DNA of 64,000 nucleotides from an uncultured delta proteobacterium (GCA_963700305.1 CAVOXB010000027.1:320358-384357); one strand, 5' to 3'; counted from the first letter of the stretch, positions 16,300-30,827 are shown. Numbers and translations are program-made. Notes: generated by a model from the letters alone, not told the origin.

Positions 16300-16583
16300 T
16301 ACTGGAAACTGAAATCACGGAAACAACTCTCAGAGTAGGTAACCAATTAGGGATTCACGCAAGAGTGGCTACCATGATGGTTCAGGCTATGCAAAATTAT
16401 ACCTGCCAGGTTACGTTGGTGAAAGATGGTGTGGAAGTTGATGCCCGAAGTGTGCTAGGATTATTGCTTTTAGCCGCCACACCAGGAAGTGAACTTGTCG
16501 TACCAGCACACGGCCCGGATTCCAGGCAAGCAATTCAGGAGATAAGCCGACTTATACAAGATGAAGAGACCGAAGAAGGTTGA
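16296..16583 (+). CDS. ptsH: Phosphocarrier protein HPr
   Basis: 95 aa. MILETEITETTLRVGNQLGIHARVATMMVQ contains the active-site His15 context (GIHARVA). Confidence 0.85.
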   Translation: MILETEITETTLRVGNQLGIHARVATMMVQAMQNYTCQVTLVKDGVEVDARSVLGLLLLAATPGSELVVPAHGPDSRQAIQEISRLIQDEETEEG

Positions 16584-16635
16584 CAAGAAAAAATCCCGGA
16601 CGCCCAAAGTAAGCGAAAACGATACCAACAGGTTG

Positions 16636-18394
16636 ATGAGGGGGATTGGAGTATCCGGAGGTGTGGGAATAGGCCAAGCTGTCGTAATCGAACGCCTTAC
16701 CACGGAAATATGCCCCAAGCGCATCCTCAATCCCGAGGAAGTGCCTCTCGAGATTTCACGATTCGAAGCTGCCGTAGAAACCGCCGCAGAACGAATAAAA
16801 GCCATTAAGGGGCACATAGACCCGCATCATCCTCTGGGTGAGCACGCGTACATTCTTGATACTCACATTTTGCTCCTTAAGGACAAGATGTTTTATGAAG
16901 GCACAAAGAAGGCCATAGACGCGGAACGACAGAACGCGGAATGGGCTGTATCCGAAATAGTCATGAAAATCACGTCCGCGTTCGATACAATTGAAGACGA
17001 ATACCTGAAGGAGCGAGCGCGAGACATTTATTTTATTGGTGAGCGCGTCCTGCGAATACTGATGGGTATTTCTACGGAAAGTAAGATCCATCAGCTTCCC
17101 CCTAATTCCGTCATAATATCTCATGATCTATCACCTGCTGATACGGCGCAGATAAAAAGAGAGTGCGTGCTTGGCTTTGCCATAGACATGGGAGGACGCA
17201 CGTCTCACACCGCCATCATGGCGCGGTCCTTGAAAATTCCCGCCATAACCGGTTTGGAGAGCATCAGCGGTCAAGTCCAGACAGGTGACACGATAGTCAT
17301 AGACGGCAGTACCGGTATTGTGATCATCAATCCCGACCCTGAAATGATTTTCAGGTACAGGGAAAGGCAGGAGCTATACAAAAAATATCAGCAGTCTTTG
17401 ATGGCCTACGGCAGATTGCCTGCGGTCACTCGCGACGGTTCCAGAACAGTTAGGATCTCCGCTAATATCGAATTGGTGGATGAGCTTGAATTCGCAAAAA
17501 GCCACGGAGCGGAAGGCATAGGGCTTTTTCGGTACTGAATACCTGTTCTTGGGCAGGCCTGATCTGCCTTCGGAAGAGGAACAGTTTGAAGTCTATCGCC
17601 AGGTGTTGAAGGAGAATGCTCCCAATCCTGTGACAATTCGAACTCTGGACATCGGCGGAGACAAGATCGCCATAAGCGTGGGCGTCTCACATGAGACCAA
17701 CCCGGCAATGGGATTGAGGGCGATCCGACTCTGCCTGAACCGCCCGGATATTTTCAAGACTCAACTCAGGGCAATTCTCAGGGCCGCCGTTGATGGTGAG
17801 TGCCGGCTCTTGATTCCAATGGTCTCCTGTCTTACGGAACTCGTGACCACGAAACAGCTGCTGGAAGAGGCAAAAAAAGACCTGGATTCCGATGGTCTAC
17901 CGTATGCCCAGCACCTCAAGTTGGGGATTCTGGTTGAGGTACCTTCCGCTGTCGCCATTGCGGACATTCTGGCGAAGAATGTAGATTTCTTTAGTATCGG
18001 AACAAACGATCTGATTCAGTACGCTCTGGCCATTGACAGAGTCAACGAGCACGTAAATTACCTTTATGACACCCTTCATCCTGCCGTTCTAAGGCTGATT
18101 CGCCAAATAGTGAGTGCAGCGCAGGCTGGAGGCATTCCTGTGTCCATGTGCGGTGAAATGGCCGGCGATCCGGTCAACATTCCTATTCTCTTGGGTCTCG
18201 GGATTGACGAGCTTTCCATGAACGCCCTAGCCATCCCTATGGTAAAGAAGCTGATTCGAGCCATCAGCATGGACGAATGCAGAGAACTCACATGGCAGGC
18301 CTTTCAATTTTACGACGCCCGGGAAATCCACGGGTTCCTTGAGTCCTGGATCACAGAACGTTTCCCCAAAGACTATTTCATAGACCAGTCCTAG
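16636..18394 (+). pseudogene. ptsI: Phosphoenolpyruvate-protein phosphotransferase (PTS enzyme I) split by a +1 frameshift at about 17533
   Basis: ORF 16561..17538 ends ...GAEGIGLFRY*. ORF 17549..18394 continues in the +1 frame as (TEYLF)LGRPDLPSEEEQ.... Canonical EI reads GIGLFRTEFLF. Deleting T17533 fuses the two frames. The catalytic His (GGRTSHTAIMARSL) and the PEP-binding C-terminal domain are both present. Confidence 0.85.
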
Positions 18395-18402
18395 CGGTTT
18401 CC

Positions 18403-18876
18403 ATGACGCAGAATGACGGTATTAAAATAATCTGTAAGAACCGTAAAGCGTTCTTCAATTTTGAAATTGAGGACACTTTCGAAGTAGGAATCTGTCTATT
18501 GGGTTCGGAAGTGAAGTCTTTGCGAAATGGCAAAGCCAACCTCTCGGATTCTTACGGCAAATTTCGCGGCGGCGAAATGTTTCTGGTAGACGCTCATATT
18601 TCTCCTTACGCGCAGGCCAACATACAGAACCACGATCCGCTTCGTGACCGCAAGCTTCTCCTGCACAAACGCGAACTGAAGAAGCTGACCGGAAAGATCA
18701 CAGAGCGCGGCTATTCGTTGGTTCCGTTGAAAATGTATTTCAAGCGTGGTAAGGTCAAATTGGAAATGGCTTTGGCAAGGGGAAAAAAGACTTACGACAA
18801 AAGAGAAGCCATTAAGAAGAAGGATCAGCGCAGAGAGCTCGAGAGAATGGTGAAATATCGCCAGAGATCGTCCTGA
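18403..18876 (+). CDS. smpB: SsrA-binding protein
   Basis: ...FNFEIEDTFEVGICLLGSEVKSLRNGKANLSDSY...LLLHKRELKKL is the SmpB signature. It lies directly upstream of tmRNA. Confidence 0.9.
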   Translation: MTQNDGIKIICKNRKAFFNFEIEDTFEVGICLLGSEVKSLRNGKANLSDSYGKFRGGEMFLVDAHISPYAQANIQNHDPLRDRKLLLHKRELKKLTGKITERGYSLVPLKMYFKRGKVKLEMALARGKKTYDKREAIKKKDQRRELERMVKYRQRSS

Positions 18877-18984: not shown

Positions 18985-19341
18985 GGGGGCGACATGGTTT
19001 CGACGGGGATAGTTGAGGTCAAGGCTGCATGTCGAGCACTCCGGTGACTCGTTAAACCGCCGGTAAATAAATTTACTCGCCAATAATCACGAGTACGCAC
19101 TAGCCGCGTAAGGCTAGCGTTTCTCTGCTTTTCTCCTGCGGGGGTGGAAGAAGCGACGGTCAGCAGGATAGCCGAGTTTCCGTGCCTGTTGGGAACAACG
19201 CGAAAAAAAAAGCGGGCTGGTCCGACGAGAAACCTTGTCTGAGGGGGTCTCAGCGGACGAGAAACAAAACTCGGAATAAGCATGTAGACGCCTTCGGCTG
19301 AAGATTTCCGGACGCGGGTTCGATTCCCGCCGCCTCCACCA
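18985..19341 (+). ncRNA. ssrA: tmRNA (SsrA). Tag reading frame 19079-19111 encodes ANNHEYALAA*.
   Basis: 5' GGGGGCGACAUGGUUUCGACGGGG. 3' GGACGCGGGUUCGAUUCCCGCCGCCUCCACCA. The acceptor stem has the G3:U70 identity pair. The resume codon is GCC and the tag ends ...YALAA-UAA. Confidence 0.9.
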
Positions 19342-19433
19342 GTTAACTTGTTGATTTTATTGAAATCGAACCCTCAGAAAGTTATCAGTAAATTAGTAAC
19401 CATTTCCGTGTTATATAATATCAGTGAGGCGAA

Positions 19434-19514
19434 ATGGTGAAACTCAAGGTCATCGTTCACGAAGCATCAGAAGGCCATTTGCCGGACGAGAATGATTTCA
19501 TCAACTGCCAGTAG
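19434..19514 (+). pseudogene. HicB-like (UPF0150) antitoxin N-terminal remnant (26 codons then a stop)
   Basis: MVKLKVIVHEASEGHLPDEN resembles the HicB N-terminus (MKYKVIVHEAEEGGYWAEVP...). It is truncated. Weak call. Confidence 0.25.
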
Positions 19515-19609
19515 GGTTGGATCCACACGCTCAACGGCAATCCGTCAATTAGAGTTCCGGGCGGAACGATTGAACTGATCCTTTGCGCCTTGCTGATAAC
19601 TCGGGAGCC

Positions 19610-22600
19610 TCATTCCTCCGCGCCTCGCGACTCCAACAGCCTGACGATTTCCCTGTTGTCCTCTTCCTCAGCCAACTGCAGAGCTGTATTGCCGTTAGCT
19701 GCCTCGGCATGTACGTCGGCTCCGCTGTCCAGGAGAAATCTCACTGTTTCGAGGTCTCCTTTCGCGGCCACAGCCATAAGCGTCGTCTTGCCGTCCTTGT
19801 CTCTTGCGTTCACGCTGGCGCCTCTGTTGACAAGGTGCTTCACGAGTTCGAGATTACCGGACAGGGCAGCGTACATGAGGACTGTGGAGCCGTCCTGGTC
19901 CTTGGCACTTACATCGGCGCCTTTTTCAAGCAAGGTTTTGACTTCTTCCAGGGAACCCTTCTTGGCTGCTTTCAATAGCTTATCATTGACTTCAGAGTAG
20001 GGCGTGCTTCGAATTGGAGGTCTGAAAATCACAATACCATAGGATGACGGGCCTAGTTCCCTGATTCGAATTTCATACGCTTTTTTTATGCACTGCGCAT
20101 CCTGACATTCATTGCGTTCATTCTCCAGCCATTGATTTTGGCTTTGAATCATTTCCTCTTTTTTCCTAGTTCGGTCGAGCACTTGCTGGTACGCCATAAC
20201 TAAGGAATTATCCAGCGTCAATAATTCATCACTGGCGCAGATTATCTTCTCTACTTCTGATCTCGCTTTTGAGCAATCAAAGCTTGCAGCGTGGATGTTT
20301 CCGCCAAATGCCCGCTTGCTATCTTGCGTTTGTGGCGCTGGTTGGGGTGGTTCAATTTTGAATTTGTTGAAATCTAAAACGCGCAAAGGCCCCGGGTTTC
20401 CTTGTGGCAATGGAACGCCCTTAGGGATAAAGAAGGCTGCTGGGTCGCTATCTAAACCTGCCGGGAATGTGAACGGCTTGAGGACCACGTACGTATTGTG
20501 AATTCCTGGACGCCTGGGCATTGCACGGGCTTGGCCGGCGATCCGTGGATCTGTTTTTGGTGCGTTGGCGATTTCTGCATTCACCCAGGCATCCGCATCG
20601 GCATCAGTAGCCTTGCGCAACAACCCTTTTCGAACCGCGTCCTTTAGACCTGCGCGGCCCGCCCGTGGCGCGGTCTTATCATAGAACGATTCTGGGGGAT
20701 TGGATTCAGAAGTAATGAGTTTTTCTCCTGCCGGTACAGGGTCGCCCACGACAGCCTTGCCATTCTTGGTCAGATAGACGAGATCCACGGGGTGCCCAAA
20801 GAGACGGCGTGACATAGGGTTGAACTCGAGGAGTTCCTTTTCTGCTTCGCCGACAACGGCATAACCACAAGGGCCCTTGTTGTCATAACTGGAATTCAGC
20901 ACAGGAACGTTAGCATCCAGACCGGCAACGGCCTGGCGATGATACCCGCTCACAAACACGGCTGCAATACGGGTGGCTGCAGTCCATTTGATATTCCAGA
21001 TAGTCGGTCCGTAAGCTCCGAGCATGATCACTACGGGCTTGGTGGAATAGTTCACCGTCACATCCATTTGAGTTGCTTGATTTCCGCTTTGGTCTATCTG
21101 GAAATGTAGTTTTCGTCGCGAATAGCCTCCTGCAGCAAATATTGCGTAATTCTCGGGAAGCGCCAGGCCTGGAAACTCGCAACCTTTTCTGGTTTGGTCC
21201 TCAGATAGCCCTTCCTGATCTTCCCCGAGTTCCTCAAGCGCCTTCTTGTATGCCTTGAGATGGTTGAAATTGTAAACAAACGAGTGCCCAGGATCCCCTT
21301 TTGGCTGTGGTACTCCCTCCGGGACGAAAAGGTTTGCCAAGTGGCCACCATAGAGCCCTGCTGGGTAAGAGAACGGCTTCAGTACAACATACGCATCCCA
21401 TGTATGGGGACGCGGGGGCTTGGGGCGGCCTTTTCCGGCAATCAATGGCACATCTCGATCAGGTCCGTTGGCTATCAGCGCATCAACCCAAGCGTCAGCA
21501 TCCGCTTCCGTCGCTTTACGCAAGAACCCTTTCCGAACAGCGTCCTCCAAACCAGCCGGGCCAGCAATTGGTGCTGTCGTGTCATGGAAGGATTCCGGGG
21601 AATTGGATTCTGAAGTAATGAGTTTTTCTCTCGCCGGTACGGGGTCGCCTATGACAACTTCGCCATTCTTGGCTGGATAAACCAGATCCACGGGGCGTCC
21701 GAATAGATTACGTGATATCTGGTTTATCTTTTCAGAATTTTCTCGTTGTCCGACATAGAAATATCCACAGGGACAAGGTCCTCGGTCGGCAGAACTCGAA
21801 TTCAGCACGGGGACAGTGGCATCGAGACCGGCAATAGCCTGGTGGTGATACCCGCTTACGAGCACACCAATGATGCGGGTGGTCGCAGTCCATTTGATGT
21901 TCCAGATCGTCGGTTCGTACGCTCCGAGCATCAATACGATAGGTTTGGAGGAATAGTTCACCGTCACATCCATTTGAGTCGCTTGATGCCCGCTCTGGTC
22001 TATTTGGAAATCCAGCGTTCGTCCCGAATAGCCTCCTGCAGCGAATATTGCATAACTCTCGGGAAGCGCCAGACCTGCAAACTCACAGGTTTTCTTGCGA
22101 TGATCCACAGATTGTCGTTTCCGCTCCTCTTCCTTTTTGTAATCAGGGGCGGAAGCAGCGTCAGAAGGCAGGGTGGATTGAGTGGTCAGATGACATTTGC
22201 TGATCTTCTCGATTGCACGGGGAATAGCTTGGCTCGCCTCACTCCATCTCGGAGGTTCACCCGGATGCAGCGCCCAAGACACCTCTTTCACGAGTTTAAC
22301 AGTCTCAAGCTGATGCTTAAGGGCACTAAGAGCCTTCTCCTGGCTCTTAGCAGACATGCGGCAGACGACGGAATCGCCGTAATCATATTCGCCGCCCAAG
22401 ATCTCAACCACAGTGCGTAGTGTGGTTAGTCTCTTCAGCCCTATCAGGAGATCGTCAAGATTTTGCTCCAGGAGAGTGATGCGTGGATCTGCGGCAGAAT
22501 CCTTGTTTTTGGCAGAATCCTTGTCTCTGACAGATTCATCATCTGCGTCAGAATCACCTTCTGGGCCAGAATCAATATCTCTATAGAAACTGGAAAGAGA

Positions 22601-23263
22601 GTGTGCGGCACTGGCTCTCACTTTGGGATCCGGGTCATGCGCCATTGCTTTGATCAACAATGGCACAGAATGATCACCACTCATGAAAGAAGCCGCCTTT
22701 GCCCTCACCACTGGAGAAGGATCTCTCAATCCAATTTCGTTGTATTTGTCCCTTTCCGGATGACCTTGCTGATTGATTACTTCCAGCGCCTTTTGTCGTT
22801 CGGTTGCCGACTTGCTATTGAGGAAACTCGCCGTCTGGTCCTCAGCAAGCGCTGGATCGACCCTATAGTAATGACAATCCATCCCGAGGTTACCGGCGAA
22901 CGCTTCGTTACGAGTCCTGAAGCCCGAGACGCGTAATCCGTCCTGCACGGAATTGGGATCATCCTGCTTCGAGCCCTCCAGCCGGACAAAGGGCAGATAG
23001 CAGTCTGATGAGGAGATTTCAAGAAGGACATGTTGCTCGTCAGCTTCGACAACTGTGTAGGGGACATTTTTACTCTTGCACTCATCCCAGGTTATGTTCT
23101 CTTTCCGCAGGACTATGATGGAAGTCATGCAGGCGCGGGATTCTCCCTGATATGTTCCGATAAAAGACGGCGGCACTTCTGCGCCGAAAGCCACTGAGGA
23201 GACGGCAAGCGCCAGAAGAATGGCCAAAAGCAGCACCCTATCAGAAGTAGAACTCATGACCAC
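19610..23263 (-). CDS. Large secreted multi-domain protein (1217 aa): signal peptide, HEAT/PBS-lyase repeats, two tandem ~330-aa repeats of an unrecognised domain, an LprI/DUF1311-like domain, and C-terminal ankyrin repeats
   Basis: Signal peptide MVMSSTSDRVLLLAILLALAVSSVAFGA. HEAT-like segment DPSPVVRAKAASF...HDPDPKVRASAAHSL. Duplicated module CEFAGLALPE(S/N)YAIFAAGGYS...TQMDVTVNYS. DUF1311-like segment FDCSKARSEVEKIICASDELLTLDNSLVMAYQQVL...WLENERNEC. Ankyrin repeats DGSTVLMYAALSGNLELVKHLVNRGASVNARDKDGKTTLMAVAAKGDLETVRFLLDSGADV. Confidence 0.7.
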   Translation of the reverse strand: MVMSSTSDRVLLLAILLALAVSSVAFGAEVPPSFIGTYQGESRACMTSIIVLRKENITWDECKSKNVPYTVVEADEQHVLLEISSSDCYLPFVRLEGSKQDDPNSVQDGLRVSGFRTRNEAFAGNLGMDCHYYRVDPALAEDQTASFLNSKSATERQKALEVINQQGHPERDKYNEIGLRDPSPVVRAKAASFMSGDHSVPLLIKAMAHDPDPKVRASAAHSLSSFYRDIDSGPEGDSDADDESVRDKDSAKNKDSAADPRITLLEQNLDDLLIGLKRLTTLRTVVEILGGEYDYGDSVVCRMSAKSQEKALSALKHQLETVKLVKEVSWALHPGEPPRWSEASQAIPRAIEKISKCHLTTQSTLPSDAASAPDYKKEEERKRQSVDHRKKTCEFAGLALPESYAIFAAGGYSGRTLDFQIDQSGHQATQMDVTVNYSSKPIVLMLGAYEPTIWNIKWTATTRIIGVLVSGYHHQAIAGLDATVPVLNSSSADRGPCPCGYFYVGQRENSEKINQISRNLFGRPVDLVYPAKNGEVVIGDPVPAREKLITSESNSPESFHDTTAPIAGPAGLEDAVRKGFLRKATEADADAWVDALIANGPDRDVPLIAGKGRPKPPRPHTWDAYVVLKPFSYPAGLYGGHLANLFVPEGVPQPKGDPGHSFVYNFNHLKAYKKALEELGEDQEGLSEDQTRKGCEFPGLALPENYAIFAAGGYSRRKLHFQIDQSGNQATQMDVTVNYSTKPVVIMLGAYGPTIWNIKWTAATRIAAVFVSGYHRQAVAGLDANVPVLNSSYDNKGPCGYAVVGEAEKELLEFNPMSRRLFGHPVDLVYLTKNGKAVVGDPVPAGEKLITSESNPPESFYDKTAPRAGRAGLKDAVRKGLLRKATDADADAWVNAEIANAPKTDPRIAGQARAMPRRPGIHNTYVVLKPFTFPAGLDSDPAAFFIPKGVPLPQGNPGPLRVLDFNKFKIEPPQPAPQTQDSKRAFGGNIHAASFDCSKARSEVEKIICASDELLTLDNSLVMAYQQVLDRTRKKEEMIQSQNQWLENERNECQDAQCIKKAYEIRIRELGPSSYGIVIFRPPIRSTPYSEVNDKLLKAAKKGSLEEVKTLLEKGADVSAKDQDGSTVLMYAALSGNLELVKHLVNRGASVNARDKDGKTTLMAVAAKGDLETVRFLLDSGADVHAEAANGNTALQLAEEEDNREIVRLLESRGAEE

Positions 23264-23523
23264 ACCTCCTTGTTAACCCGCCAATGGATTGGATTAATCT
23301 GCATAATGTGCGGACTCTCGATCTTCTTCGGCATACCACGCCATTCTGGTGATTGCCAGAGAAATACTAAGGTCTCTGTGTCGGGATCAAGCCCGCCGTG
23401 CATTGCCTTGTCGCCCTTGGGGACAACATGCCATCGGTTCGTGAATCTGTGATGGCATCGATAAGGAAAATAGGAGGAAATTTTGCGCAAATTCAGTGCA
23501 ACGATCAGATTGTCCTGATCCAT
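23254..23523 (-). CDS. Hypothetical small protein immediately upstream of, and overlapping, the giant gene
   Basis: The ORF frame runs on through the IS200 left-end hairpin, so its true 5' end is probably the internal Met (MDQDN...) or has been disrupted by the IS. It overlaps the 1217-aa gene start by 10 nt. Confidence 0.3.
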   Translation of the reverse strand: MDQDNLIVALNLRKISSYFPYRCHHRFTNRWHVVPKGDKAMHGGLDPDTETLVFLWQSPEWRGMPKKIESPHIMQINPIHWRVNKEVWS

Positions 23524-23569
23524 CAGGAGGTCACCACAGCAAGAGCCATTGTAGCGTAACCAGAAAATG

Positions 23570-24190
23570 GTAAGCCCCCGGCTTTGCCGGGGAGACTCCC
23601 CAAGGTTTGACCGTGTGAGGCAGTAAGAGGCAACCTCCCAGAACACACCAAATTTCAATTCTGGGAGGTTTTCATGAAAGACTATAAGAGCCTAAATCAC
23701 ACGAAGTGGGATTGCAAGTATCATGTGGTTTTCATTCCCAAACGCCGGAGAAAGCAGATTTACGGTTCCCTTCGGAAATACCTGGGAGAGATATTTCATG
23801 AGTTGGCTCGCCAAAAGGAGTCCCAGATAGTGGAAGGACATCTGTGCTCGGATCATGTCCATGTGTGCATGAGTATTCCACCCAAGTTTGCTGTGTCCAA
23901 CGTGATCGGGTACATCAAAGGCAAGAGTGCGATCTCCATTGCAAGGAATTTCACAGCGAGAAAGCGGAACTTTGCAGGAGAGAGCTTTTGGGCTCGTGGC
24001 TACTATGTCTCAACAGTGGGTTTGGACGAAGAGTCTGTAAGGAAGTACATTTCGCGAGCAGGACGCCAAAGACGCAAGGCTCGATCAACTGAACTGGCTT
24101 TCTGACGACGACCCGTCCCCTTCAGGGGACTCATGAGCTGACCCCCTTGGGGGGCTAACAGGAATATGCCCCCGGCTTTGCCGGGGGTAA
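23570..24190 (+). mobile_element. IS200/IS605-family insertion sequence (tnpA only) with subterminal hairpins
   Basis: Left-end hairpin CCCCGGCTTTGCCGGGG at 23575-23592. Right-end hairpins GTCCCCTTCAGGGGAC, CCCCCTTGGGGGG and CCCCCGGCTTTGCCGGGGG at 24100-24188. Confidence 0.7.
23674..24105 (+). CDS. tnpA: IS200/IS605 family transposase TnpA (HUH Y1)
   Basis: 143 aa. MKDYKSLNHTKWDCKYHVVFIPKRRRK...HLCSDHVHVCMSIPPK contains the HuH motif (HVHV) and the catalytic Tyr region (GYYVSTVG). Confidence 0.85.
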   Translation: MKDYKSLNHTKWDCKYHVVFIPKRRRKQIYGSLRKYLGEIFHELARQKESQIVEGHLCSDHVHVCMSIPPKFAVSNVIGYIKGKSAISIARNFTARKRNFAGESFWARGYYVSTVGLDEESVRKYISRAGRQRRKARSTELAF

Positions 24191-24231
24191 TTTAACCTAA
24201 CTGATATGTTGCGATTTATCGGTGCCTCAAT

Positions 24232-24260
24232 CGGGTTCGATTCCCGCCGCCTCCAACAGT
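24232..24260 (+). repeat. attR-like direct repeat of the tmRNA 3' end (CGGGTTCGATTCCCGCCGCCTCCAaCAGT)
   Basis: 24 of 24 identical to tmRNA 19315-19338, with continued identity after one mismatch. No D-arm or anticodon arm upstream, so it is not a tRNA gene. Confidence 0.6.
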
Positions 24261-24439
24261 AACAACTTAATATGATTGGACGTTTCTTAACCGAAACGGA
24301 GTGTAATAGGGGAGGTTCTGTCGGAGAACGGAGCCCCACGATGATAAGGGAACCTATGTCCTGAACGGTTCTCAGACAGTAAGTCCGTCGGCTGGCGACG
24401 TCAGTCCGGAAGAGAAATCGGTCGAATCGTCCTCATTGG

Positions 24440-24781
24440 TTATCTCGCTCTGTAAGCCGAGTGCGCCAACAGGGCCGTCAGGACAGCATGCACCACGACC
24501 GCCGGCCACAACAGCGGCCCCGCCCATTCGCTAAGGATGCCGATGTAAGCCAGATAGGCTGTCACCAGGGCGCTGTAGGTCAGCATGCCGAGCAATGCCA
24601 ATCCCGGCAAGCAAGCGATACCCAACGCAATCAGGGCGATGCCGGCCACACGAGCTACCGGAATCGAAACTCCGGTAAGCTCGGCGCCGAGCAATACCCG
24701 TCCGACAAGCCCTGGAACAACCAGCAGCGCCAAACCCGTGGTCGCTTCGGCCACAGCGGCGAGAGTCAGCAGTCTTTTCAT
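24440..24781 (-). CDS. Small hydrophobic membrane protein (113 aa), GC-rich
   Basis: Three to four predicted TM helices. It sits in the GC-rich segment with the sulfatase. Confidence 0.4.
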   Translation of the reverse strand: MKRLLTLAAVAEATTGLALLVVPGLVGRVLLGAELTGVSIPVARVAGIALIALGIACLPGLALLGMLTYSALVTAYLAYIGILSEWAGPLLWPAVVVHAVLTALLAHSAYRAR

Positions 24782-24804
24782 TCGTCGAACCGCGTTCAGT
24801 CTCG

Positions 24805-27288
24805 CTACCGGGCGACAGCCTCAGCGGCTTGTTTGTGTTCCGTTTCGGCGTGCTGCGCCGGTTCGAGTTTGAAGGTCAGCTTGTTGATCTTGCCGGTGAA
24901 CTTGAATGGGACGTCGTAGCGATACTCCAGCATCGCGACCCCGGTCCGCGTGTCCTGGCCTATATCGAAGGTTTCGTCCTCCGGGAACGTGATCGGGGTG
25001 GTGTGTTCCAGGGAATTCCGGGCCACTTCCTGACCGTCCACATACAGCACGCCCGTACCTCCCTTGCCCAGGCCCGGGCCGGCAGACTTGAAGTCGAAGA
25101 CGATGGTGTGCTTCCCCGATTTCAACTCAGGCCCCTCCCATGTCGTGCGCTTGAGATCGAGCAGGTTGTAGAGAAACACCACCTTACCGCGCCCGAAGCC
25201 GAACTCGCCCTTGCTCAGGAACAGGCCGTAGCCGCCGAAGCGTCCGCCATCGGTGACGATCATGCCTTCCGCTCCACCTTCAGGAATTTCTACCTCGGCA
25301 GTAATTGTGTACGACTTGTTCAGGATGTTCGGTGCGCCACTGTTAGGGACGCCGGTCAGTTCTCCCGAATAGGTGAAGACCGTTCGTCCCCCCGTGAGGT
25401 TCGGCCGAGGCGTGTTCCAGCGCGCGAGCGACGAGTTGTCGAGCGGCAGCACGTCGTATTTTTGCGCCTCCAGATAGAAGATGGCCTGCATCTGCTTGAG
25501 CTTCTCCGGCATCTTGGCGGCCAGGTCGTTGAACTGGGTGGGGTCCTCCTGGACATTGTAGAGCTCCCACTTGTACCCGGTTATCACGTCCGGCGGCGTG
25601 GCGGTGCTGAGCTCCCAGGGAAGGTTCGCCGGTGTCGTGCACGCAACCCAGCCATCGTGGTAGATGGCTCTGTTGCCGAGCATCTCGAAGTATTGCGTGG
25701 AGTGCCGGGTCGGGGCATTGGCGTTTGCCTTGTCCCAGGTGTAAATCGTGCTCACTCCTTCGATGGGGCGTTGTTTGATGCCGTTGATCGTCTCGGGTGA
25801 CGGGATGCCTGTCGCTTCGAGGATTGTCGGCACGACGTCGATGACGTGATGGAACTGGTGGCGGATGCCGCCCACGTCCTTTATGTGGCCAGGCCAGGAC
25901 ACCGCCATGCCCTGGGCCGTCCCTCCGAAATGGGACGCCACCTGCTTCACCCACTTGAACGGCGTGCTCATCGCCCACGCCCAACCTGCCGCAAAGTGTG
26001 GGAACGTCCGTTCCGAGCCCCAGAACTCGTACCAGAGAAACTGGTCCTTGACCGGAACGGCAACGCCATTGAACGTGGTGAACTCGTTCGGCGTACCGTT
26101 GAGCATACCCTCAGCGCTCGCGCCGTTGTCACCGCTGATGTAGATGATCAAGGTGTTGTCGAGTTGCCCGAGGTCTTCGACGGCCTGGATGACCCTGCCG
26201 ATCTCATGGTCGGTGTACGCGAGGTACGCCCCGTAGACGTCGGCCTGCTTGATGAAGAGCTTCTTCTCCTCCAAGCTGAGTGAATCCCACTCCGGCAGTT
26301 CCTTCGGCCAAGGCGTCAGCTTCGCGTTCTCGGGCATGATGCCCAGCCGCTTCTGATTAGCGAAGATGGTCTCGCGGACTTTGTTCCAGCCCTCATCGAA
26401 GAGATGCATGTCGCTGACCTTCTTGATCCATTCAGAAGTAGGATGATGCGGCGCGTGCGTGCCGCCCGGCACGTAATAGACGAAGAACGGTTTATCGGGC
26501 GCGATCTCTTTGAGCTGCTTCATGTACTGGATCGCCTCGTCGGCCATGGCCGTGGTCAGGTTCCAGCCGGGGCTGCCCTGAAAGGGGTAGATAGACGTCG
26601 TGTTGCGAAACAGGTTCGGTTGCCACTGGCTGGCGTCGCCGCCAACGAAGCCGTAGAAATACTCGAAGCCCAATCCGTTCGGCCACTGGTCGAACGGCCC
26701 GGCCTGGGTTGCCTGATAAAACGGTGTGTTGTGGTTCTTGCCGAACCACGAAGTTGCATAACCATTGTCCCTAAGGATGGCGCCTATTGTGCCGTTCTCC
26801 TTCCGGATGATCGAGTCGTACCCCGGGAACCCCGTCGCGATTTCGCCCACGACGCCGAAGCCGGCCACGTGATGGTTGCGTCCCGTGATAATCGCAGCCC
26901 GCGTCGGTGAGCACAGCGACGTGGAGTGGAAGTTCGTGTAACGCAGTCCATTGTTCGCGATGCGATCCAGGGCCGGGGTCGGGACAACGCCGCCGAAGGT
27001 GCCCGGCGCGCCGTAGCCGACATCGTCCGTCATGATGAGTAACACATTGGGCGCGCCCTTCGGGGGAACGACGCGTGGCGCCCACCACGCCTTCGACTCA
27101 GAGGCTTTCTCCTTGATCACCCCCCCAAATTTCGGGTCTGGTGGAGGAAGCTGCTTTCCGTCAATGGTTGTGGTCGCATCCGGTGAGCCCGGTACGCCGG
27201 TGATCTGCTGAGCGTTGCCGGGACTGGCAACAGCCGTGACGAGGGCAATCAAGGCTACGTACATCAATAGTTGATTTCGAGGACGCAT
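24805..27288 (-). CDS. Arylsulfatase (Cys-type sulfatase family S1), secreted, with a roughly 300-aa C-terminal extension
   Basis: Signal peptide (MRPRNQLLMYVALIALVTAVASPGNAQQ). Sulfatase signature LIMTDDVGYGAPGTFGG...TNFHSTSLCSPTRAAIITGR (C-x-P-x-R). GC is visibly higher than in flanking DNA. Confidence 0.85.
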   Translation of the reverse strand: MRPRNQLLMYVALIALVTAVASPGNAQQITGVPGSPDATTTIDGKQLPPPDPKFGGVIKEKASESKAWWAPRVVPPKGAPNVLLIMTDDVGYGAPGTFGGVVPTPALDRIANNGLRYTNFHSTSLCSPTRAAIITGRNHHVAGFGVVGEIATGFPGYDSIIRKENGTIGAILRDNGYATSWFGKNHNTPFYQATQAGPFDQWPNGLGFEYFYGFVGGDASQWQPNLFRNTTSIYPFQGSPGWNLTTAMADEAIQYMKQLKEIAPDKPFFVYYVPGGTHAPHHPTSEWIKKVSDMHLFDEGWNKVRETIFANQKRLGIMPENAKLTPWPKELPEWDSLSLEEKKLFIKQADVYGAYLAYTDHEIGRVIQAVEDLGQLDNTLIIYISGDNGASAEGMLNGTPNEFTTFNGVAVPVKDQFLWYEFWGSERTFPHFAAGWAWAMSTPFKWVKQVASHFGGTAQGMAVSWPGHIKDVGGIRHQFHHVIDVVPTILEATGIPSPETINGIKQRPIEGVSTIYTWDKANANAPTRHSTQYFEMLGNRAIYHDGWVACTTPANLPWELSTATPPDVITGYKWELYNVQEDPTQFNDLAAKMPEKLKQMQAIFYLEAQKYDVLPLDNSSLARWNTPRPNLTGGRTVFTYSGELTGVPNSGAPNILNKSYTITAEVEIPEGGAEGMIVTDGGRFGGYGLFLSKGEFGFGRGKVVFLYNLLDLKRTTWEGPELKSGKHTIVFDFKSAGPGLGKGGTGVLYVDGQEVARNSLEHTTPITFPEDETFDIGQDTRTGVAMLEYRYDVPFKFTGKINKLTFKLEPAQHAETEHKQAAEAVAR

Positions 27289-27952
27289 CGCTGTCTCCTC
27301 CATCAAGAGATTCTTAACCTTTAATATCATTTATTTTTCGACCTTAACCCGGCATTCAAAGAAGGCCTCGCAATTCTACCTTCGCAGCGGGCGATGAAAA
27401 TTCACGGATTTGTTACCTGCGACCCGCTCAGGCCTTTTGTAACACCCCACAGTGTCCTAGATCATCAAATCCGTCATCAACATTATCAATAAATTCTCCT
27501 ATTCAGCATAACTGTCCCCACGCGTCTCCGTCAATCAGAATCCTTCGCGTTTCCGCATATCATTGATGATTGCCTAGAGCGGCGCCAGAAAAAGGGCCTG
27601 ATTCAAGAATGAACAAATCGCTAGTCAAGTCCCCTCCCGGCCAATCATCGACAGAAACAGCCCACTTGAAAATCAGCTCGTTTAGCGGAAAGGACGTCGT
27701 GCATTTCATCGGATGCAATCTACCAGAAGACAGAGGTAATAGCATGATATGACAGCATTTAATGACTTGTGGATCGGGTTAGATTCCGCGTCTTCCCCCT
27801 GTGATTGCTAGGCATTGATGCTTTGTACCGAAAAACAAAGGCGTGCAAACCAATGCGCACCTTGGTAGTGTACTCGTCATTTGTGATCTCGAATTGTTTC
27901 CAAGGCGCGGGACAAGCAACGGTAACCCACCAAATAAAATTGCAGGCAAACC

Positions 27953-28207
27953 ATGTCTGAGACTCCGTTTAAATCCTGGAATCGCACTGCAGTCCGATGC
28001 TTGGCTAGTTCCAGGGCAGACGAAAGGCCCCTCTCGTTTTTGGTGGGCGATGACGAGATCCAGGTTGCCTCGGTTGTGGAGTCCTGGCGGGAACCGGATT
28101 ATCTCTATTTCAAAGTAGAGACCAGAGCTGGCCGGATATATGACCTCAGGCATCATGAATATGAGGATTCTTGGCAGGTAAGAGAATCGCCGCACCAGGC
28201 AACCTAG
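27953..28207 (+). CDS. Hypothetical protein (84 aa)
   Basis: ORF only, no recognisable motif. Confidence 0.2.
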   Translation: MSETPFKSWNRTAVRCLASSRADERPLSFLVGDDEIQVASVVESWREPDYLYFKVETRAGRIYDLRHHEYEDSWQVRESPHQAT

Positions 28208-28273
28208 AACCACGTCAATCGCAAGCAAATAGCCTGAAAAACCCGGCGCTCTATGTCAAAGAAACAGAAAAAA

Positions 28274-28801
28274 TCAGAAAAACACAGACCCGAACCAGTG
28301 AAAGAAGGCGTATGTGCTGACCATACCCTCGATAGCTGCTGCTCCAAGCAATGCCCAGCGGGAGCGCTGGGTCGGCGCTACGAAAGCCGAAAGGATGAAG
28401 GCGGCGGCCAGCAGCGGCGCTGCGAACATCAGCAGAACCGCGAGAAACTCAGCGATGACCCATCGGGGCTCATGGAGTGGCCAGGAAGAAGCAAATGCGA
28501 TTACCGAAGCGGCGGCTATGCCGGTAACGGCAAGCGCCAATGATATTATTGAGATGGCGGTCCAGAATGGTCGAAAAAGCCGCAGAAAGTAGAGTGCCAA
28601 TCCAGTCGGGAAGAGCGCCACAACGCCAAATACGAACATAAAAAGGATGCTGTCTCCGAATGCATACATTCCCGATGAAGCTTGCGCATCTGGACCCTGC
28701 GTATGAAGGATTCTGTAGTAAACAGAAGCACTTGCAACAAGACACGCTATGAGATAACCTGCAAGGACTGCGCTGACCTTGATGAGTCTGTTAATGAACA
28801 C
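28274..28801 (-). CDS. Hypothetical membrane protein (175 aa, about 5 TM)
   Basis: Hydrophobic helices, no recognised family. Confidence 0.4.
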   Translation of the reverse strand: MFINRLIKVSAVLAGYLIACLVASASVYYRILHTQGPDAQASSGMYAFGDSILFMFVFGVVALFPTGLALYFLRLFRPFWTAISIISLALAVTGIAAASVIAFASSWPLHEPRWVIAEFLAVLLMFAAPLLAAAFILSAFVAPTQRSRWALLGAAAIEGMVSTYAFFHWFGSVFF

Positions 28802-28910
28802 CCTCCAACAGTAACGCGACTGAAACTCGTAGCAAACCAGGATGCAGTCGGACTTTATCCGGTTTCCGCGTTTTTAGGTGATAAGATTCGTATCTGTTTG
28901 GACTCTGAAC

Positions 28911-29252
28911 TCATCTCTCTTCCGCAAGAACTGACTTTGTTTCTTCTTCAAGAATTGGGATCTTATCTTGGATTGCCGTCCATGCAGTCTCCAGGTTCAC
29001 TCCGAAATATTCGTGGATAAGTATGTTACGAAACCCAATGATTTTTGCCCACTCGACATCGAGGTATAGAGACTTGACGTCCTGCGGTAGACGATTCGCT
29101 GCCTCCCCTATGACTTCGAAGTTCCGGATGACTGCGTCTTGGGTCTTGAGGTCAGCCTGGAATTCTTCAAATGACATTCATTCAGTAAACCTCCGAATCT
29201 TCCGGCAAGATTCGAGGATGTCATCGAGATAGAGCCTAAAGTCCCGGGGCAT
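28911..29252 (-). pseudogene. hepT: HepT-like toxin (HEPN/DUF86) copy 1, interrupted by an in-frame TGA at 29178-29180
   Basis: The minus strand reads MPRDFRLYLDDILESCRKIRRFTE-[TGA]-MSFEEFQADLKTQDAVIRNFEVIGEA...RNILIHEYFGV (the Rx4HxY HEPN motif). The paralog at 30209-30556 has YTAGFSYEQF at the equivalent position. The start overlaps the mntA stop by 17 nt. Confidence 0.7.
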
Positions 29253-29535
29253 AAATGGTCTCCTCCAGGATGGCGGTGCGTATTCTCGGCTTTATGGTGT
29301 CTGAGATGACGAGATCAACTGGTCGTTCAAACAGTCCTTCCAAAAAAAATTTCAGATCGAAATAGTTGTCAAATGTGGCGCTCTCGAATTCCACGAGGAA
29401 ATCCATGTCGCTGGCCTCTGTTTGCTGATCGTGGGCGTACGATCCGAAAAATCCGAGGCGACGCACTCCGAAGCCACGAATCATTTCCAGATTCTCCTCA
29501 AGCCTGCGTAAGATTTCGTCGCGGTTCACTTCCAT
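29236..29535 (-). CDS. mntA: MntA-like nucleotidyltransferase antitoxin copy 1 (intact)
   Basis: 99 aa. RRLGFFGSYAHDQQTEASDMDFLVEF shows the GSxxxxxx...DxD minimal nucleotidyltransferase motif. Confidence 0.75.
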   Translation of the reverse strand: MEVNRDEILRRLEENLEMIRGFGVRRLGFFGSYAHDQQTEASDMDFLVEFESATFDNYFDLKFFLEGLFERPVDLVISDTIKPRIRTAILEETIYAPGL

Positions 29536-29576
29536 TGCCTCAATCTATTTCTAGCTAAGAAATACTTGTCAAATTT

Positions 29577-30212
29577 TCACAAAACTGCTCGGATCAGTTC
29601 TTTGAGAAGAACGGAGTCTTTCGCAGAAATCGAGAATATTTCAAAGCCTGCGGCCGAGATGTCCAGGTCCTCACCTGGCTCTACCCATTTAAAAAAGGCT
29701 TCCAAGCGTATCTCGTCTGTATCGAGCAGATCCTCCGGATGAATGGCGATGGTGATTCTTTCTCCTGTCCGCACGCCGAGCCCCATGACGCACCCGCCTT
29801 TTTCATTTATGTCAATAAGTAACCCCGGCGGAAGCTGCGGACAGTCGATACAGGAAACAGGTAGGAGTCGCTTCAAGGGATATCGTGGAGTTGACCTTTT
29901 GTCATCGGTTTCAACTTCGTAATCGTAGAGGATGGGCCTCCAGTAAACGTCACTTGAGCTGACCGCGCCCTCACGGATAAGACTTAAAAGCCTTCTTCTC
30001 AGTTCAGCCGCAGTAATTCGATACTTCTCCATGAGCTCCAAATCGGTCATGCTGCTCCCAAGGTCACTTATGAATAAGTCTTCTGCACGCTCCATGATTT
30101 GAGACTCCGTTTCTTTCGCAGAACTACTCTTAGCATACTGGAGATATTCATTGATCGCCATTGTTTTGAGCAATCGCGCGATCTTTGGGGCGCTCTGCCG
30201 GCTCCGTATCAC
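29577..30212 (-). CDS. Hypothetical protein with a possible C-terminal PilZ-like (c-di-GMP-binding) domain and an N-terminal HTH-like segment. Co-oriented with hepT copy 2, with a 4-nt overlap.
   Basis: RSTPRYPLKR (RxxxR) followed about 25 aa later by DINEKGGCVMGLGV, which resembles the PilZ (D/N)xSxxG motif with S replaced by N. Assignment is tentative. Confidence 0.4.
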   Translation of the reverse strand: MIRSRQSAPKIARLLKTMAINEYLQYAKSSSAKETESQIMERAEDLFISDLGSSMTDLELMEKYRITAAELRRRLLSLIREGAVSSSDVYWRPILYDYEVETDDKRSTPRYPLKRLLPVSCIDCPQLPPGLLIDINEKGGCVMGLGVRTGERITIAIHPEDLLDTDEIRLEAFFKWVEPGEDLDISAAGFEIFSISAKDSVLLKELIRAVL

Positions 30213-30556
30213 TCCTTTGGTTCGAGAATGCGTTGCACGCTATCTCTAACCCGCGGCAGATCGTTTTGAATTATCTTCCAGATCACATCGAGCTTGATCC
30301 CGAAATACTGGTGCACAATAATGTCTCTTAATCCGGCCATATCTCGCCACGGAACCTCAGGATAGTGGGAACGTATTTCTTCTGGGATGTTTTTCGTTGC
30401 TTCTCCAATAATTTGAAGGTTCCACACTACTGCTTCAACAGTCTTTTGATCGGCAGCGAATTGCTCATACGAGAATCCCGCTGTGTATCCTAAGACTTTT
30501 CCGGAGGCTTCCAGAATATCGTCCAGGAATACTCTATAATCCCTCGGCATAAACAA
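30209..30556 (-). CDS. hepT: HepT-like toxin (HEPN/DUF86) copy 2 (intact, 115 aa)
   Basis: MFMPRDYRVFLDDILEASGKVLGYTAGFSYEQF...RDIIVHQYFGI (Rx4HxY). Confidence 0.8.
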   Translation of the reverse strand: MFMPRDYRVFLDDILEASGKVLGYTAGFSYEQFAADQKTVEAVVWNLQIIGEATKNIPEEIRSHYPEVPWRDMAGLRDIIVHQYFGIKLDVIWKIIQNDLPRVRDSVQRILEPKE

Positions 30557-30827
30557 CCTCGTTAAGGATGATTGGTCTGAGCCTCGGCTTCACTGCGTCC
30601 GCAAAAACAAGATCCACGGAACAGCCAAACAGCTGCTCAAGGAACTCTTTCAGGTTCAAGTAGTTTTGGAGCGTAGCATCATAGAACTCCACCAGGAAGT
30701 CTATGTCGCTGGACTGTTTCTCTTCGCCACGCGGCATACGAACCAAAGACACCTAGGCGATGCACTCCGAAACCTCGGATGGCCTCACGATTCTCCTCTA
30801 ACGTTTTCAGGATGATGTCGGAAGTCA
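30534..30827 (-). pseudogene. mntA: MntA-like nucleotidyltransferase antitoxin copy 2, with a frameshift (1-nt insertion near 30730)
   Basis: Upstream frame: MTSDIILKTLEENREAIRGFGVHRLGVFGSYAAWRR. ORF frame: (R)MPRGEEKQSSDIDFLVEF.... The expected contiguous sequence is ...GVFGSYARGEEKQSSDIDFLVEF. Confidence 0.7.

What the first reader, a model, noticed from the sequence alone, without database searches (positions are those of the whole stretch)
18985..24260. Integration scar at the tmRNA gene: a 29-nt direct repeat of the ssrA 3' end brackets a roughly 4.9-kb integrase-less island
ssrA 3' ends are classic att sites. The sequence CGGGTTCGATTCCCGCCGCCTCCA(C/A)CAGT occurs at 19315-19343 (the tmRNA end) and again at 24232-24260. 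The interval holds cargo unrelated to the flanking housekeeping genes: a giant secreted repeat protein, a HicB-like stub and IS200. There is no integrase or excisionase, so the element looks immobilised or degraded. Alternatively it is the remnant of a larger island whose other end was lost.
Basis: partly seen in the sequence, partly recalled or inferred. Interest (0 to 1): 0.7.

Follow-up and report, generated by a model that had tools for sequence, protein, structure and literature searches.

The report
Decayed island array at the tmRNA gene
The end of the tmRNA gene is repeated downstream because foreign DNA modules integrated there one after another and then lost their integrase genes, which is a well-known way that bacterial genomes pick up accessory genes.

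Summary
The tmRNA gene is at 18985-19341. Its last 29 nt (19315-19343) recur at 24232-24260 with one mismatch, and the 24-nt core is expected 0 times by chance. The second copy is only a 3' fragment, not a gene.

The interpretation as an integrase-less island is supported but incomplete. Two further decayed copies exist, at 27775-27802 (about 22/29 matches) and 28802-28815 (a 14-nt stub plus flank). The structure is therefore a tandem array of about 9.5 kb:
- Module 1 carries a 1217-aa secreted HEAT/ankyrin protein and an IS200.
- Module 2 carries an arylsulfatase. Its GC is 0.58 against a background of 0.50, and it is 84-90% identical to proteobacterial enzymes.
- Module 3 carries two small ORFs.

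In Desulfomonilaceae relatives the upstream synteny (PTS-ptsI-smpB-ssrA) is invariant and the downstream content is not. One relative (L212) has ssrA joined directly to the gene that follows copy 3 here, which serves as an empty site. Another (L016) keeps an integrase C-terminal fragment next to a decayed copy.

No recombinase other than the IS200 transposase was found in the 64 kb. A metagenome contig (L205) spans module 1 exactly from repeat to repeat, so that module may still be polymorphic.

This is a known kind of feature (tandem, partly decayed ssrA islands) and of modest interest.

The parts
18403..18876 (+). smpB, the conserved upstream neighbour of ssrA
   Evidence: Pfam SmpB 7.7e-61. 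PTS-ptsI-smpB-ssrA synteny is present in all family loci.
18985..19341 (+). ssrA (tmRNA gene), the integration target
   Evidence: ARAGORN; Rfam RF00023, 188.9 bits.
19315..19343 (+). Copy 1 (attL-type core): T-stem, T-loop, acceptor 3' strand and CCA of the working tmRNA gene
19344..19404 (+). Right flank of copy 1, conserved with the flanks that follow tmRNA-end copies in many relatives (candidate element arm or terminator region)
   Evidence: Family flank profile matches 19315-19404, E 3.7e-23; flank listing.
19434..19514 (+).
   Evidence: Translation; no Pfam family.
19610..23263 (-). Module 1 cargo: a 1217-aa protein with a predicted signal peptide, HEAT repeats, two copies (about 67% identical) of a 277-aa uncharacterised domain, an LprI domain and C-terminal ankyrin repeats. 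The start is probably the ATG at 23257.
23560..24196 (+). IS200-family insertion sequence (approximate ends): tnpA 23674-24105, left-end hairpin 23571-23592, right-end hairpin 24165-24186, RBS stem-loop 23632-23670
   Evidence: Pfam Y1_Tnp 1e-35; repeats; present at the same place in L205.
24197..24231 (+). Left-arm remnant next to copy 2, homologous to the left flanks of copy 3 and of L026 copy 2
   Evidence: Junction profile hit 24197-24302, E 1.2e-15; alignment A1.
24232..24260 (+). Copy 2: displaced tmRNA 3' end (28/29 identical to copy 1)
   Evidence: not a gene
24440..24781 (-). Module 2: 113-aa hydrophobic ORF, GC 0.62
   Evidence: no Pfam or PHROG family
24805..27330 (-). Module 2 cargo: arylsulfatase, GC 0.60, GC3 0.79
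   Evidence: Pfam Sulfatase 1.1e-57; composition; 84-90% aa identity to arylsulfatases of Pseudomonas, Bosea, Bradyrhizobium and Chromatiaceae.
27683..27774 (+). Left arm of copy 3, homologous to the left flanks of L026 copy 2 and L008 copy 3
   Evidence: Junction profile hit 27683-27865, E 3e-16, the best hit in the window.
27775..27802 (+). Copy 3: decayed tmRNA 3' end, CGGGTTAGATTCCGCGTCTTCCCCCTGT (about 22 of 29 positions, one gap)
27803..28207 (+). Conserved flank plus the 84-aa ORF at 27953-28207 (weak DUF6504 match). In L212 this block directly follows the intact ssrA.
28274..28801 (-). 175-aa ORF of unknown function (module 3)
28802..28887 (+). Copy 4 remnant: CCTCCAACAGTAAC (28802-28815, identical to the end of copy 2) plus a flank (28821-28887) of the L015/L208 type
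   Evidence: 14-mer found twice, 0.02 expected; flank profile E 0.0022, third-best hit in the window after copies 1 and 2; alignment A3.
28911..30752 (-). Accessory region just beyond the array: two MNT/HepT toxin-antitoxin pairs (HepT 28911-29177 with MNT 29236-29535; HepT 30209-30556 with MNT 30534-30752) and a 211-aa ORF

Best explanation
The region from 19315 to about 28890 is a tandem array of remnants of integrative elements. These elements inserted one after another, by site-specific recombination, into the 3' end of the tmRNA gene.

Each incoming element carried its own copy of the tmRNA T-arm and acceptor 3' end. Recombination within that shared core rebuilt a working ssrA and pushed the previous 3' end downstream as a direct repeat. 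Selection acts only on the copy inside the gene, so the displaced copies decay: copy 2 is 28/29, copy 3 about 22/29, and copy 4 is a 14-nt stub.

The recombinase was most likely a tyrosine integrase encoded next to the distal repeat. It has been deleted from every module here. In module 1 an IS200 now occupies the position where the integrase gene would be expected. What remains is cargo: a secreted HEAT/ankyrin protein, an arylsulfatase and small ORFs.

What is shown: the repeats, their gradient of decay, homologous junction flanks in relatives, an empty site in a relative, the foreign composition and cross-phylum similarity of the cargo, and the absence of a recombinase.

What is inferred: the integrase class, the order of the insertions, and how the integrase genes were lost.
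For: Repeats:
- The 24-nt core is exact twice, with 0 expected by chance.
- Copy 3 and its flanks match a junction profile built from relatives at E 3e-16, and copy 2 matches at E 1.2e-15.
- The copy 4 14-mer occurs twice against 0.02 expected, and it is followed by a flank hit at E 0.002.
- All copies are in direct orientation. Identity begins at the T-stem, and the sequence to the left is unrelated to tmRNA.

Comparative evidence:
- Upstream synteny is conserved in about 35 family loci, while the downstream content is shared by none of 23.
- Extra tmRNA-end copies occur in L002, L008 (4 copies), L026 and L031, with decayed ones in L016, L022 and L032.
- L212 has ssrA followed directly by the ortholog of ORF 27953-28207 (67% aa) with a homologous flank, which serves as an empty site.
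- L016 has a tyrosine-recombinase C-terminal fragment (LLGH..RYSH) ending about 40 nt before a decayed core.

The core as an att site: among 120 IMG/VR contigs carrying the same 24-nt core, 65 have only the fragment, and 21 of those have a tyrosine integrase within 2.5 kb.

Foreign cargo:
- Module 2 has GC 0.579, against 0.502 +/- 0.013 (maximum 0.527) elsewhere in the window, and sulfatase GC3 is 0.79.
- The sulfatase is 84-90% identical to proteobacterial enzymes.
- The repeat domain of the module 1 protein is 56-72% identical to proteins of Beta- and Gammaproteobacteria.

Precedent: the tDNA island principle (PMC4383910); tandem ssrA islands, about half of them lacking an integration module (PMC3146451); degenerate elements and partial tRNAs in islands (bioRxiv 10.1101/2020.12.28.424599).
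Against: - No integrase or integrase fragment was detected anywhere in the window, so the recombinase class rests on relatives and on general knowledge.
- No empty site was found in the same species. L212 is a different species (SmpB 81%, tmRNA 88%).
- The module 2 cargo looks recent (unameliorated GC) while copy 3 is strongly decayed. A simple one-event-per-repeat history does not fit, and cargo replacement or loss of an intermediate copy must be assumed.
- Module 1 has native-like GC (0.511).
- About 70 nt to the right of many copies is also conserved across the family. That stretch could be an ssrA terminator region rather than an element arm.
- No viral contig shares the flanking arms.
Confidence: 0.85

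Rival explanations
1. Module 1 (and perhaps the others) is not a dead scar. It would be a cis-mobilisable cassette: it keeps two usable att copies, and an ssrA-specific integrase encoded elsewhere in the genome, or in a co-resident element, excises and inserts it.
For: - Copies 1 and 2 share 24 exact nt plus conserved flanks.
- ENA contig L205 (4981 nt, 97.75% identical, with long-read-like indels) aligns end to end with window 19347-24260. That is exactly one repeat period, as expected for a presence/absence bubble or a circular form.
- Integrase-less modules bounded by tmRNA-end copies recur in the family. The DUF4331 module appears in L002, L008, L026 and L213.
- The idea has precedent for ssrA islands (PMC3146451).
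Against: - No integrase was seen in the 64 kb or within 10 kb of ssrA in the relatives, apart from one fragment in L016.
- No read-level evidence, attP junction or conspecific empty site could be retrieved.
- The ends of L205 could reflect how the assembler handles strain heterogeneity.
- A rare RecA-type deletion between the repeats would give the same polymorphism.
- The DUF4331 module is equally well explained by vertical inheritance of an old scar.
Confidence: 0.25
2. The elements were delivered by a serine recombinase rather than a tyrosine integrase, as in the Dehalococcoides ssrA islands (DsiB, a CcrB-like enzyme).
For: Dehalococcoides shows the same architecture, with tandem direct repeats of the ssrA 3' end and many modules lacking an integration module (PMC3146451).
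Against: - The only recombinase remnant found next to a decayed copy in the family is a tyrosine recombinase C-terminus (L016).
- Viral contigs with this exact core carry tyrosine integrases.
- No Resolvase or Recombinase Pfam domain appears in any window ORF scanned.
- Serine recombinases were not specifically screened for in the relatives.
Confidence: 0.07
3. The extra copies come from local duplication or unequal recombination of the ssrA 3' region, or from a tRNA-like fragment carried by the IS200, with no site-specific integration involved.
For: Similarity extends somewhat beyond the core on the right of every copy. The IS200 lies 36 nt from copy 2.
Against: - The left flanks of copies 2 and 3 are unrelated to the tmRNA body, but are homologous to each other and to junctions in other species that have no IS200.
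- The intervening DNA is compositionally foreign.
- L212 lacks the whole insert.
- The relatives have no IS200 homolog at their copies.
Confidence: 0.03

Closest known systems
tRNA/tmRNA-gene genomic islands as defined for Islander/TIGER (Williams and co-workers; PMC4383910)
   Same: The target gene is regenerated and a displaced 3' fragment lies in direct orientation marking the island end. The identity block covers the T-stem region through to the 3' end. The tmRNA gene is the most enriched target. Tandem arrays occur.
   Different: No module here has an integrase gene, so Islander's filter would reject it. The distal copies are decayed or truncated.
[quoted passage not shown]
   Same: Multiple tandem islands lie downstream of ssrA, delimited by roughly 20-bp direct repeats of its 3' end, in a hypervariable region. 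About half of the modules lack an integration module and are discussed as cis-mobilisable or fixed.
   Different: Those islands use a CcrB-like serine recombinase module next to attL and carry reductive dehalogenase cargo. Here the only recombinase trace in the family is of tyrosine type, next to the distal copy, and the cargo is different.
Tycheposon-built islands of Prochlorococcus (bioRxiv 10.1101/2020.12.28.424599)
   Same: Successive integrations at tRNA or tmRNA genes push older elements inward. Those islands contain remnants, fragmented integrases and scattered partial tRNAs.
   Different: Tycheposons are defined by their integrase and replication modules, and none is present here. The lineage is also different.
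Cis-mobilisable elements (CIMEs) derived from ICEs/IMEs
   Same: The unit is flanked by att sites but encodes neither integration nor transfer functions.
   Different: Mobilisation in trans has not been shown here. Contig L205 is only suggestive.
CP4-57 cryptic prophage at E. coli K-12 ssrA
   Same: Both are foreign DNA integrated at the 3' end of ssrA, immediately downstream of smpB-ssrA.
   Different: CP4-57 retains its integrase IntA directly next to ssrA. IntA detects nothing in this window or in the relatives.

Membership tests
tDNA-targeting genomic island (Islander definition) | An intact target tRNA/tmRNA gene plus a displaced 3' fragment of it in direct orientation on the same replicon | tested here: met
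   One tmRNA gene. The 24-nt exact fragment at 24232-24255 is on the same strand. There are further decayed copies.
tDNA-targeting genomic island (Islander definition) | A tyrosine integrase gene lies inside the interval | tested here: not met
   Pfam on all ORFs of the interval and on all window ORFs of 250 aa or more; tyrosine-recombinase HMM on six-frame ORFs of 60 aa or more; tblastn with 26 integrases. The HMM was validated on viral contigs.
tDNA-targeting genomic island (Islander definition) | Sporadic occurrence: relatives have an uninterrupted site | tested here: met
   L212 has ssrA directly followed by the flank and ORF that follow copy 3 here. This is an inter-species comparison; no conspecific empty site was found.
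tDNA-targeting genomic island (Islander definition) | The identity block starts in the T-stem or anticodon region and runs to the 3' end of the gene | tested here: met
   The block starts at CGGG of the T-stem 5' strand in copies 2 and 3 and in the copies of relatives.
Cis-mobilisable element (CIME) | Both flanking att sites are intact and there are no integration or transfer genes | tested here: met
   Applies to module 1 only. Copies 1 and 2 are 28/29 identical, and no recombinase is present except the IS200 TnpA.
Cis-mobilisable element (CIME) | Excision or integration is driven in trans by a related element's integrase | not testable with these tools
   The only indirect hint is contig L205, which is bounded by the repeats.
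Dehalococcoides-type ssrA-GI | An integration module with the serine recombinase DsiB overlapping attL | tested here: not met
   There is no recombinase domain next to copy 1 or anywhere in the interval.
IS200/IS605 insertion sequence (the element at about 23560-24196) | Y1 HUH transposase and subterminal hairpins at both ends | tested here: met
   Pfam Y1_Tnp 1e-35. Hairpin GCCCCCGGCTTTGCCGGGG at 23571-23592 and 24165-24186.

The most novel reading that the evidence does not exclude
In Desulfomonilaceae the ssrA 3' end might act as a cassette-like acquisition site. Integrase-less cargo modules bounded by tmRNA-end copies would still be exchanged, excised or lost as discrete units by a recombinase encoded elsewhere. 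Module 1 of this window would be one such active unit, as hinted by a metagenome contig that spans it exactly from repeat to repeat.
Probability: 0.2. Interest if true: 0.5.

Novelty: new member of a known kind. Interest (0 to 1): 0.3.

Why it matters
The finding documents how a Desulfomonile-like genome acquired accessory genes at ssrA: a secreted HEAT/ankyrin protein, a proteobacterial-type arylsulfatase and toxin-antitoxin pairs. It also shows that island finders requiring an integrase would miss the whole array. For annotation, it sets the true limits of the acquired region at about 19344-28890 rather than 19344-24260. The biology is textbook-level. The only part with wider interest is whether integrase-less modules at ssrA remain mobile in trans, and that could be tested directly from reads of the metagenomes named in this report.

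Tried and rejected
- **Exact-protein look-ups.** Look-ups for SmpB, a 170-aa upstream protein, the 113-aa ORF and the IS200 TnpA found nothing on record. The 98%-identical SmpB contig (L214) ends right after smpB. No conspecific empty-site test was therefore possible.
- **Metagenome scan.** A scan with the species-type tmRNA 3' region returned only other species (82-89% identity), but one of them was the informative L212.
- **Viral contigs.** 120 contigs share the 24-nt core, but none shares the flanking arms; scores of about 30-37 bits reflect the core alone. No parent element was identified.
- **E. coli IntA alone as a probe.** It found nothing. It was replaced by a 6-sequence HMM.
- **Left arm of copy 2 across the IS200.** I tested whether the arm continues on the other side of the IS200. 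In-silico excision raised the profile score only from 52.9 to about 57 bits, which is inconclusive.
- **HicB identity of the 26-codon ORF.** No Pfam hit.
- **Excisionase or phage families in small ORFs.** None found in PHROGs.
- **Further copies beyond 28.9 kb.** None found by three profiles or by pattern searches.
- **D. tiedjei DSM 6799.** It has no second copy or integrase within 10 kb of ssrA, and it is not the source of the window (SmpB 87%).


Full report
**1. Observation**

ARAGORN and Rfam agree on a single tmRNA gene at 18985-19341 on the + strand (tag ANNHEYALAA; RF00023, 188.9 bits). It lies just downstream of smpB at 18403-18876. The 24-nt string CGGGTTCGATTCCCGCCGCCTCCA occurs exactly twice in the 64 kb, at 19315-19338 and 24232-24255, on the same strand. 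No match appeared in 100 dinucleotide-preserving shuffles, even with 3 mismatches allowed. Read directly, the two 29-mers differ at one position (CCACCAGT against CCAACAGT). The coordinates and the claim are correct.

The second copy is not a gene. ARAGORN finds no tRNA or tmRNA there, and Rfam in E-value mode gives 17.4 bits against a gathering score of 47.

**2. Content of the interval**

- A conserved flank of about 60 nt follows copy 1.
- A 26-codon ORF lies at 19434-19514.
- A 1217-aa ORF lies on the minus strand at 19610-23263. It has a signal-peptide-like N-terminus, HEAT repeats, two copies (about 67% identical) of a 277-aa domain, an LprI domain and ankyrin repeats.
- An IS200-family element follows. 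Its Y1 transposase gene is at 23674-24105, matching hairpins lie at 23571-23592 and 24165-24186, and an RBS stem-loop lies at 23632-23670.
- Copy 2 starts 36 nt after the IS200.

**3. No recombinase**

Pfam was run on every plausible ORF between 14 and 40 kb and on all window ORFs of 250 aa or more. It found no integrase, resolvase or other recombinase apart from the IS200 transposase.

I built an HMM from E. coli IntA, lambda Int, XerC, XerD and two family recombinases, and searched all stop-to-stop frames of 60 aa or more. It found nothing in the window. A tblastn search with 26 integrases found nothing either.

The probe works. Among 120 IMG/VR contigs that contain the same 24-nt core, 65 carry it without a full tmRNA gene, and in 21 of those the HMM finds a tyrosine integrase within 2.5 kb. 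This also shows that this exact core is used as an att site by integrase-bearing elements.

PHROGs found no excisionase-like or phage family in the small ORFs.

**4. More copies**

Comparison with relatives revealed a third copy. A profile built from the junctions L026 copy 2 and L008 copy 3 (about 95 nt left, the core, 70 nt right) gives its best window hit at 27683-27865 (E 3e-16). The next hits are 24197-24302 (E 1.2e-15) and copy 1 (E 2e-8). The core of this third copy is CGGGTTAGATTCCGCGTCTTCCCCCTGT at 27775-27802, which matches about 22 of 29 positions with one gap.

A fourth remnant lies at 28802-28815. It is CCTCCAACAGTAAC, identical to the end of copy 2. This 14-mer occurs twice in the window against 0.02 expected. 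It is followed at 28821-28887 by a flank that matches the right flank of the tmRNA gene in L015 and L208 (E 0.0022, the third-best hit after copies 1 and 2).

No further copy was found.

The structure is therefore:
- ssrA with copy 1
- module 1 (19344-24231)
- copy 2
- module 2 (24261-27774)
- copy 3
- module 3 (27803-28801)
- copy 4 stub
- two MNT/HepT toxin-antitoxin pairs (28911-30752)

**5. The modules are foreign**

Module 2 consists of a small hydrophobic ORF and an arylsulfatase. Its GC is 0.579, while equal-sized windows elsewhere average 0.502 +/- 0.013 (maximum 0.527). Sulfatase GC3 is 0.79, against 0.52-0.60 for neighbouring genes. The sulfatase is 84-90% identical in protein sequence to arylsulfatases of Pseudomonas, Bosea, Bradyrhizobium, Chromatiaceae and others.

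Module 1 has native-like GC (0.511). However, the repeat domain of its protein is 56-72% identical to roughly 325-aa hypothetical proteins of Rhodocyclaceae, Hydrogenophaga, Pseudomonas, Marinobacter, Desulfobulbus and Nitrospira. That again suggests lateral spread.

**6. Relatives**

The window comes from a Desulfomonile-like organism. SmpB is 90% identical to a D. tiedjei MAG and 87% to strain DSM 6799, so the window is not from that strain.

In about 35 family loci the upstream order PTS genes-ptsI-smpB-ssrA is conserved. None of the 23 loci with more than 1 kb of downstream sequence shares the window's downstream genes, and these loci share little with each other.

Extra tmRNA-end copies occur in L002, L008 (four copies), L026 and L031. 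Decayed copies occur in L016, L022 and L032.

The left flanks of window copies 2 and 3 are homologous to each other and to those of L026 copy 2 and L008 copy 3. None of these flanks resembles the tmRNA body. Identity always begins at CGGG of the T-stem. This is the signature of att junctions, not of a local duplication.

**7. Empty site**

A scan of JGI metagenomes with the tmRNA 3' region returned L212 (Ga0172368_10030324). It carries ptsI, smpB (81% aa) and an intact ssrA (88% nt). About 160 nt downstream lies the ortholog (67% aa) of window ORF 27953-28207. The intervening flank aligns with the sequence to the right of window copy 3.

Relative to L212, the window carries about 8.4 kb of inserted DNA between the tmRNA end and that flank, subdivided by copy 2. 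This is an inter-species empty-site test. A conspecific test could not be obtained.

Because copy 4 lies beyond that ORF, the ORF may itself belong to an older, fixed module.

**8. Recombinase class**

In L016 an 83-aa frame carries the tyrosine-recombinase C-terminal motif (…LLGHSDPLQTMRYSHL…). It ends about 40 nt before a decayed core, GGTTTCTATTCCAAGCGCCTCCA. In the viral contigs the integrase gene also commonly lies directly beside the core fragment.

By analogy, the integrase of module 1 would have sat where the IS200 now is, and that of module 2 in the 440-nt non-coding stretch left of copy 3. This is inference. A serine recombinase, as in Dehalococcoides (PMC3146451), is not excluded.

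**9. Is module 1 really immobile?**

The closest database relative of the module 1 protein (P0001, 96%) lies on ENA contig ERZ25039459:contig_113286 (L205, 4981 nt). The contig aligns end to end with window 19347-24260 at 97.75% identity, with 75 gap positions. These look like long-read errors.

The contig starts 3 nt after copy 1 and ends on the last base of copy 2, so it spans exactly one repeat period. Three situations would produce this: a presence/absence bubble, a circular form, or differing flanks among co-occurring strains. It is hard to explain by chance.

The contig shows that the module behaves as a discrete unit in at least one natural population. It does not distinguish integrase-mediated excision in trans from deletion between the repeats.

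**10. Difficulties**

Copy 3 is heavily decayed, although the module 2 cargo looks recent. A one-repeat-one-event history is therefore too simple. Cargo replacement, loss of an intermediate copy, or integration into a secondary copy must be assumed.

About 70 nt to the right of many family copies is conserved, including a [TC]GCA[AG] motif at about +48 nt. This could be an element arm with integrase-binding sites, or the ssrA terminator region. I could not decide between these.

**11. Comparison with known systems**

The architecture matches the textbook tDNA-island principle (PMC4383910). It is closest to the tandem ssrA islands of Dehalococcoides, where about half of the modules lack an integration module and were discussed as cis-mobilisable or fixed (PMC3146451). 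It also resembles the remnant-rich tRNA/tmRNA islands of Prochlorococcus (bioRxiv 10.1101/2020.12.28.424599).

It fails the Islander membership criterion of an internal integrase. It is best described as a decayed tandem array, a new member of a known kind.

**12. Verdict**

It needs extending to a four-copy array of about 9.5 kb. Interest is modest (0.3). The one open point is possible trans-mobilisation of integrase-less modules, and read-level analysis of the named metagenomes would test it.

Noticed in passing
window 17480-17600 (ptsI, ORFs 16561-17538 and 17549-18394): ptsI is split by a +1 frameshift. The window reads CGG-T-ACTGAATACCTG where L001 reads CGAACCGAGTACTTG. Relatives L001, L002 and L214 (SmpB 98%) have a single frame. 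This is either a pseudogene or a sequencing error.
   Followed up: partly
[not shown]
   Followed up: partly
about 45-60 nt downstream of tmRNA-end copies: L015 6414-6440, L017, L024, L212; window 27838-27856 and 28841-28850: A [TC]GCA[AG] motif sits at a fixed distance of about 48 nt (and 59 nt) after the tmRNA end in about 15 of 37 family flanks, sometimes as tandem 11-nt units (e.g. CCGGATGCAAATCGGATGCAA). It could be a set of integrase arm sites or part of an ssrA terminator loop.
   Followed up: partly
L002 14608-15681, L008 12282-13295, L026 11203-12216, L213: The same DUF4331 gene sits in an integrase-less module bounded by tmRNA-end copies in several species, at different positions in their arrays.
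   Followed up: partly
L008 10896-16404: There are four exact copies of the tmRNA 3' end within 5.5 kb. Two of them are much longer partial tmRNA genes (about 137 and 270 nt), which made ARAGORN call spurious 'permuted tmRNAs'.
   Followed up: no
window 28706, compared with L206 (JGI 3300069203): A contig 97% identical to the window over 27115-28706 diverges completely from 28706 onward, inside ORF 28274-28801 and about 100 nt before copy 4. This looks like a strain-level recombination breakpoint.
   Followed up: partly
L215 (D. tiedjei DSM 6799, CP003360.1, downstream of ssrA): In the type strain the 10 kb after ssrA holds NYN, SIR2_2, MNT and PIN genes (defence and toxin-antitoxin types). 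There is no integrase and no second tmRNA-end copy.
   Followed up: partly
window 28911-29535 and 30209-30752: Two MNT/HepT toxin-antitoxin pairs lie side by side. The first pair is 76-80% identical at protein level to a pair 6 kb downstream of ssrA in L012.
   Followed up: no
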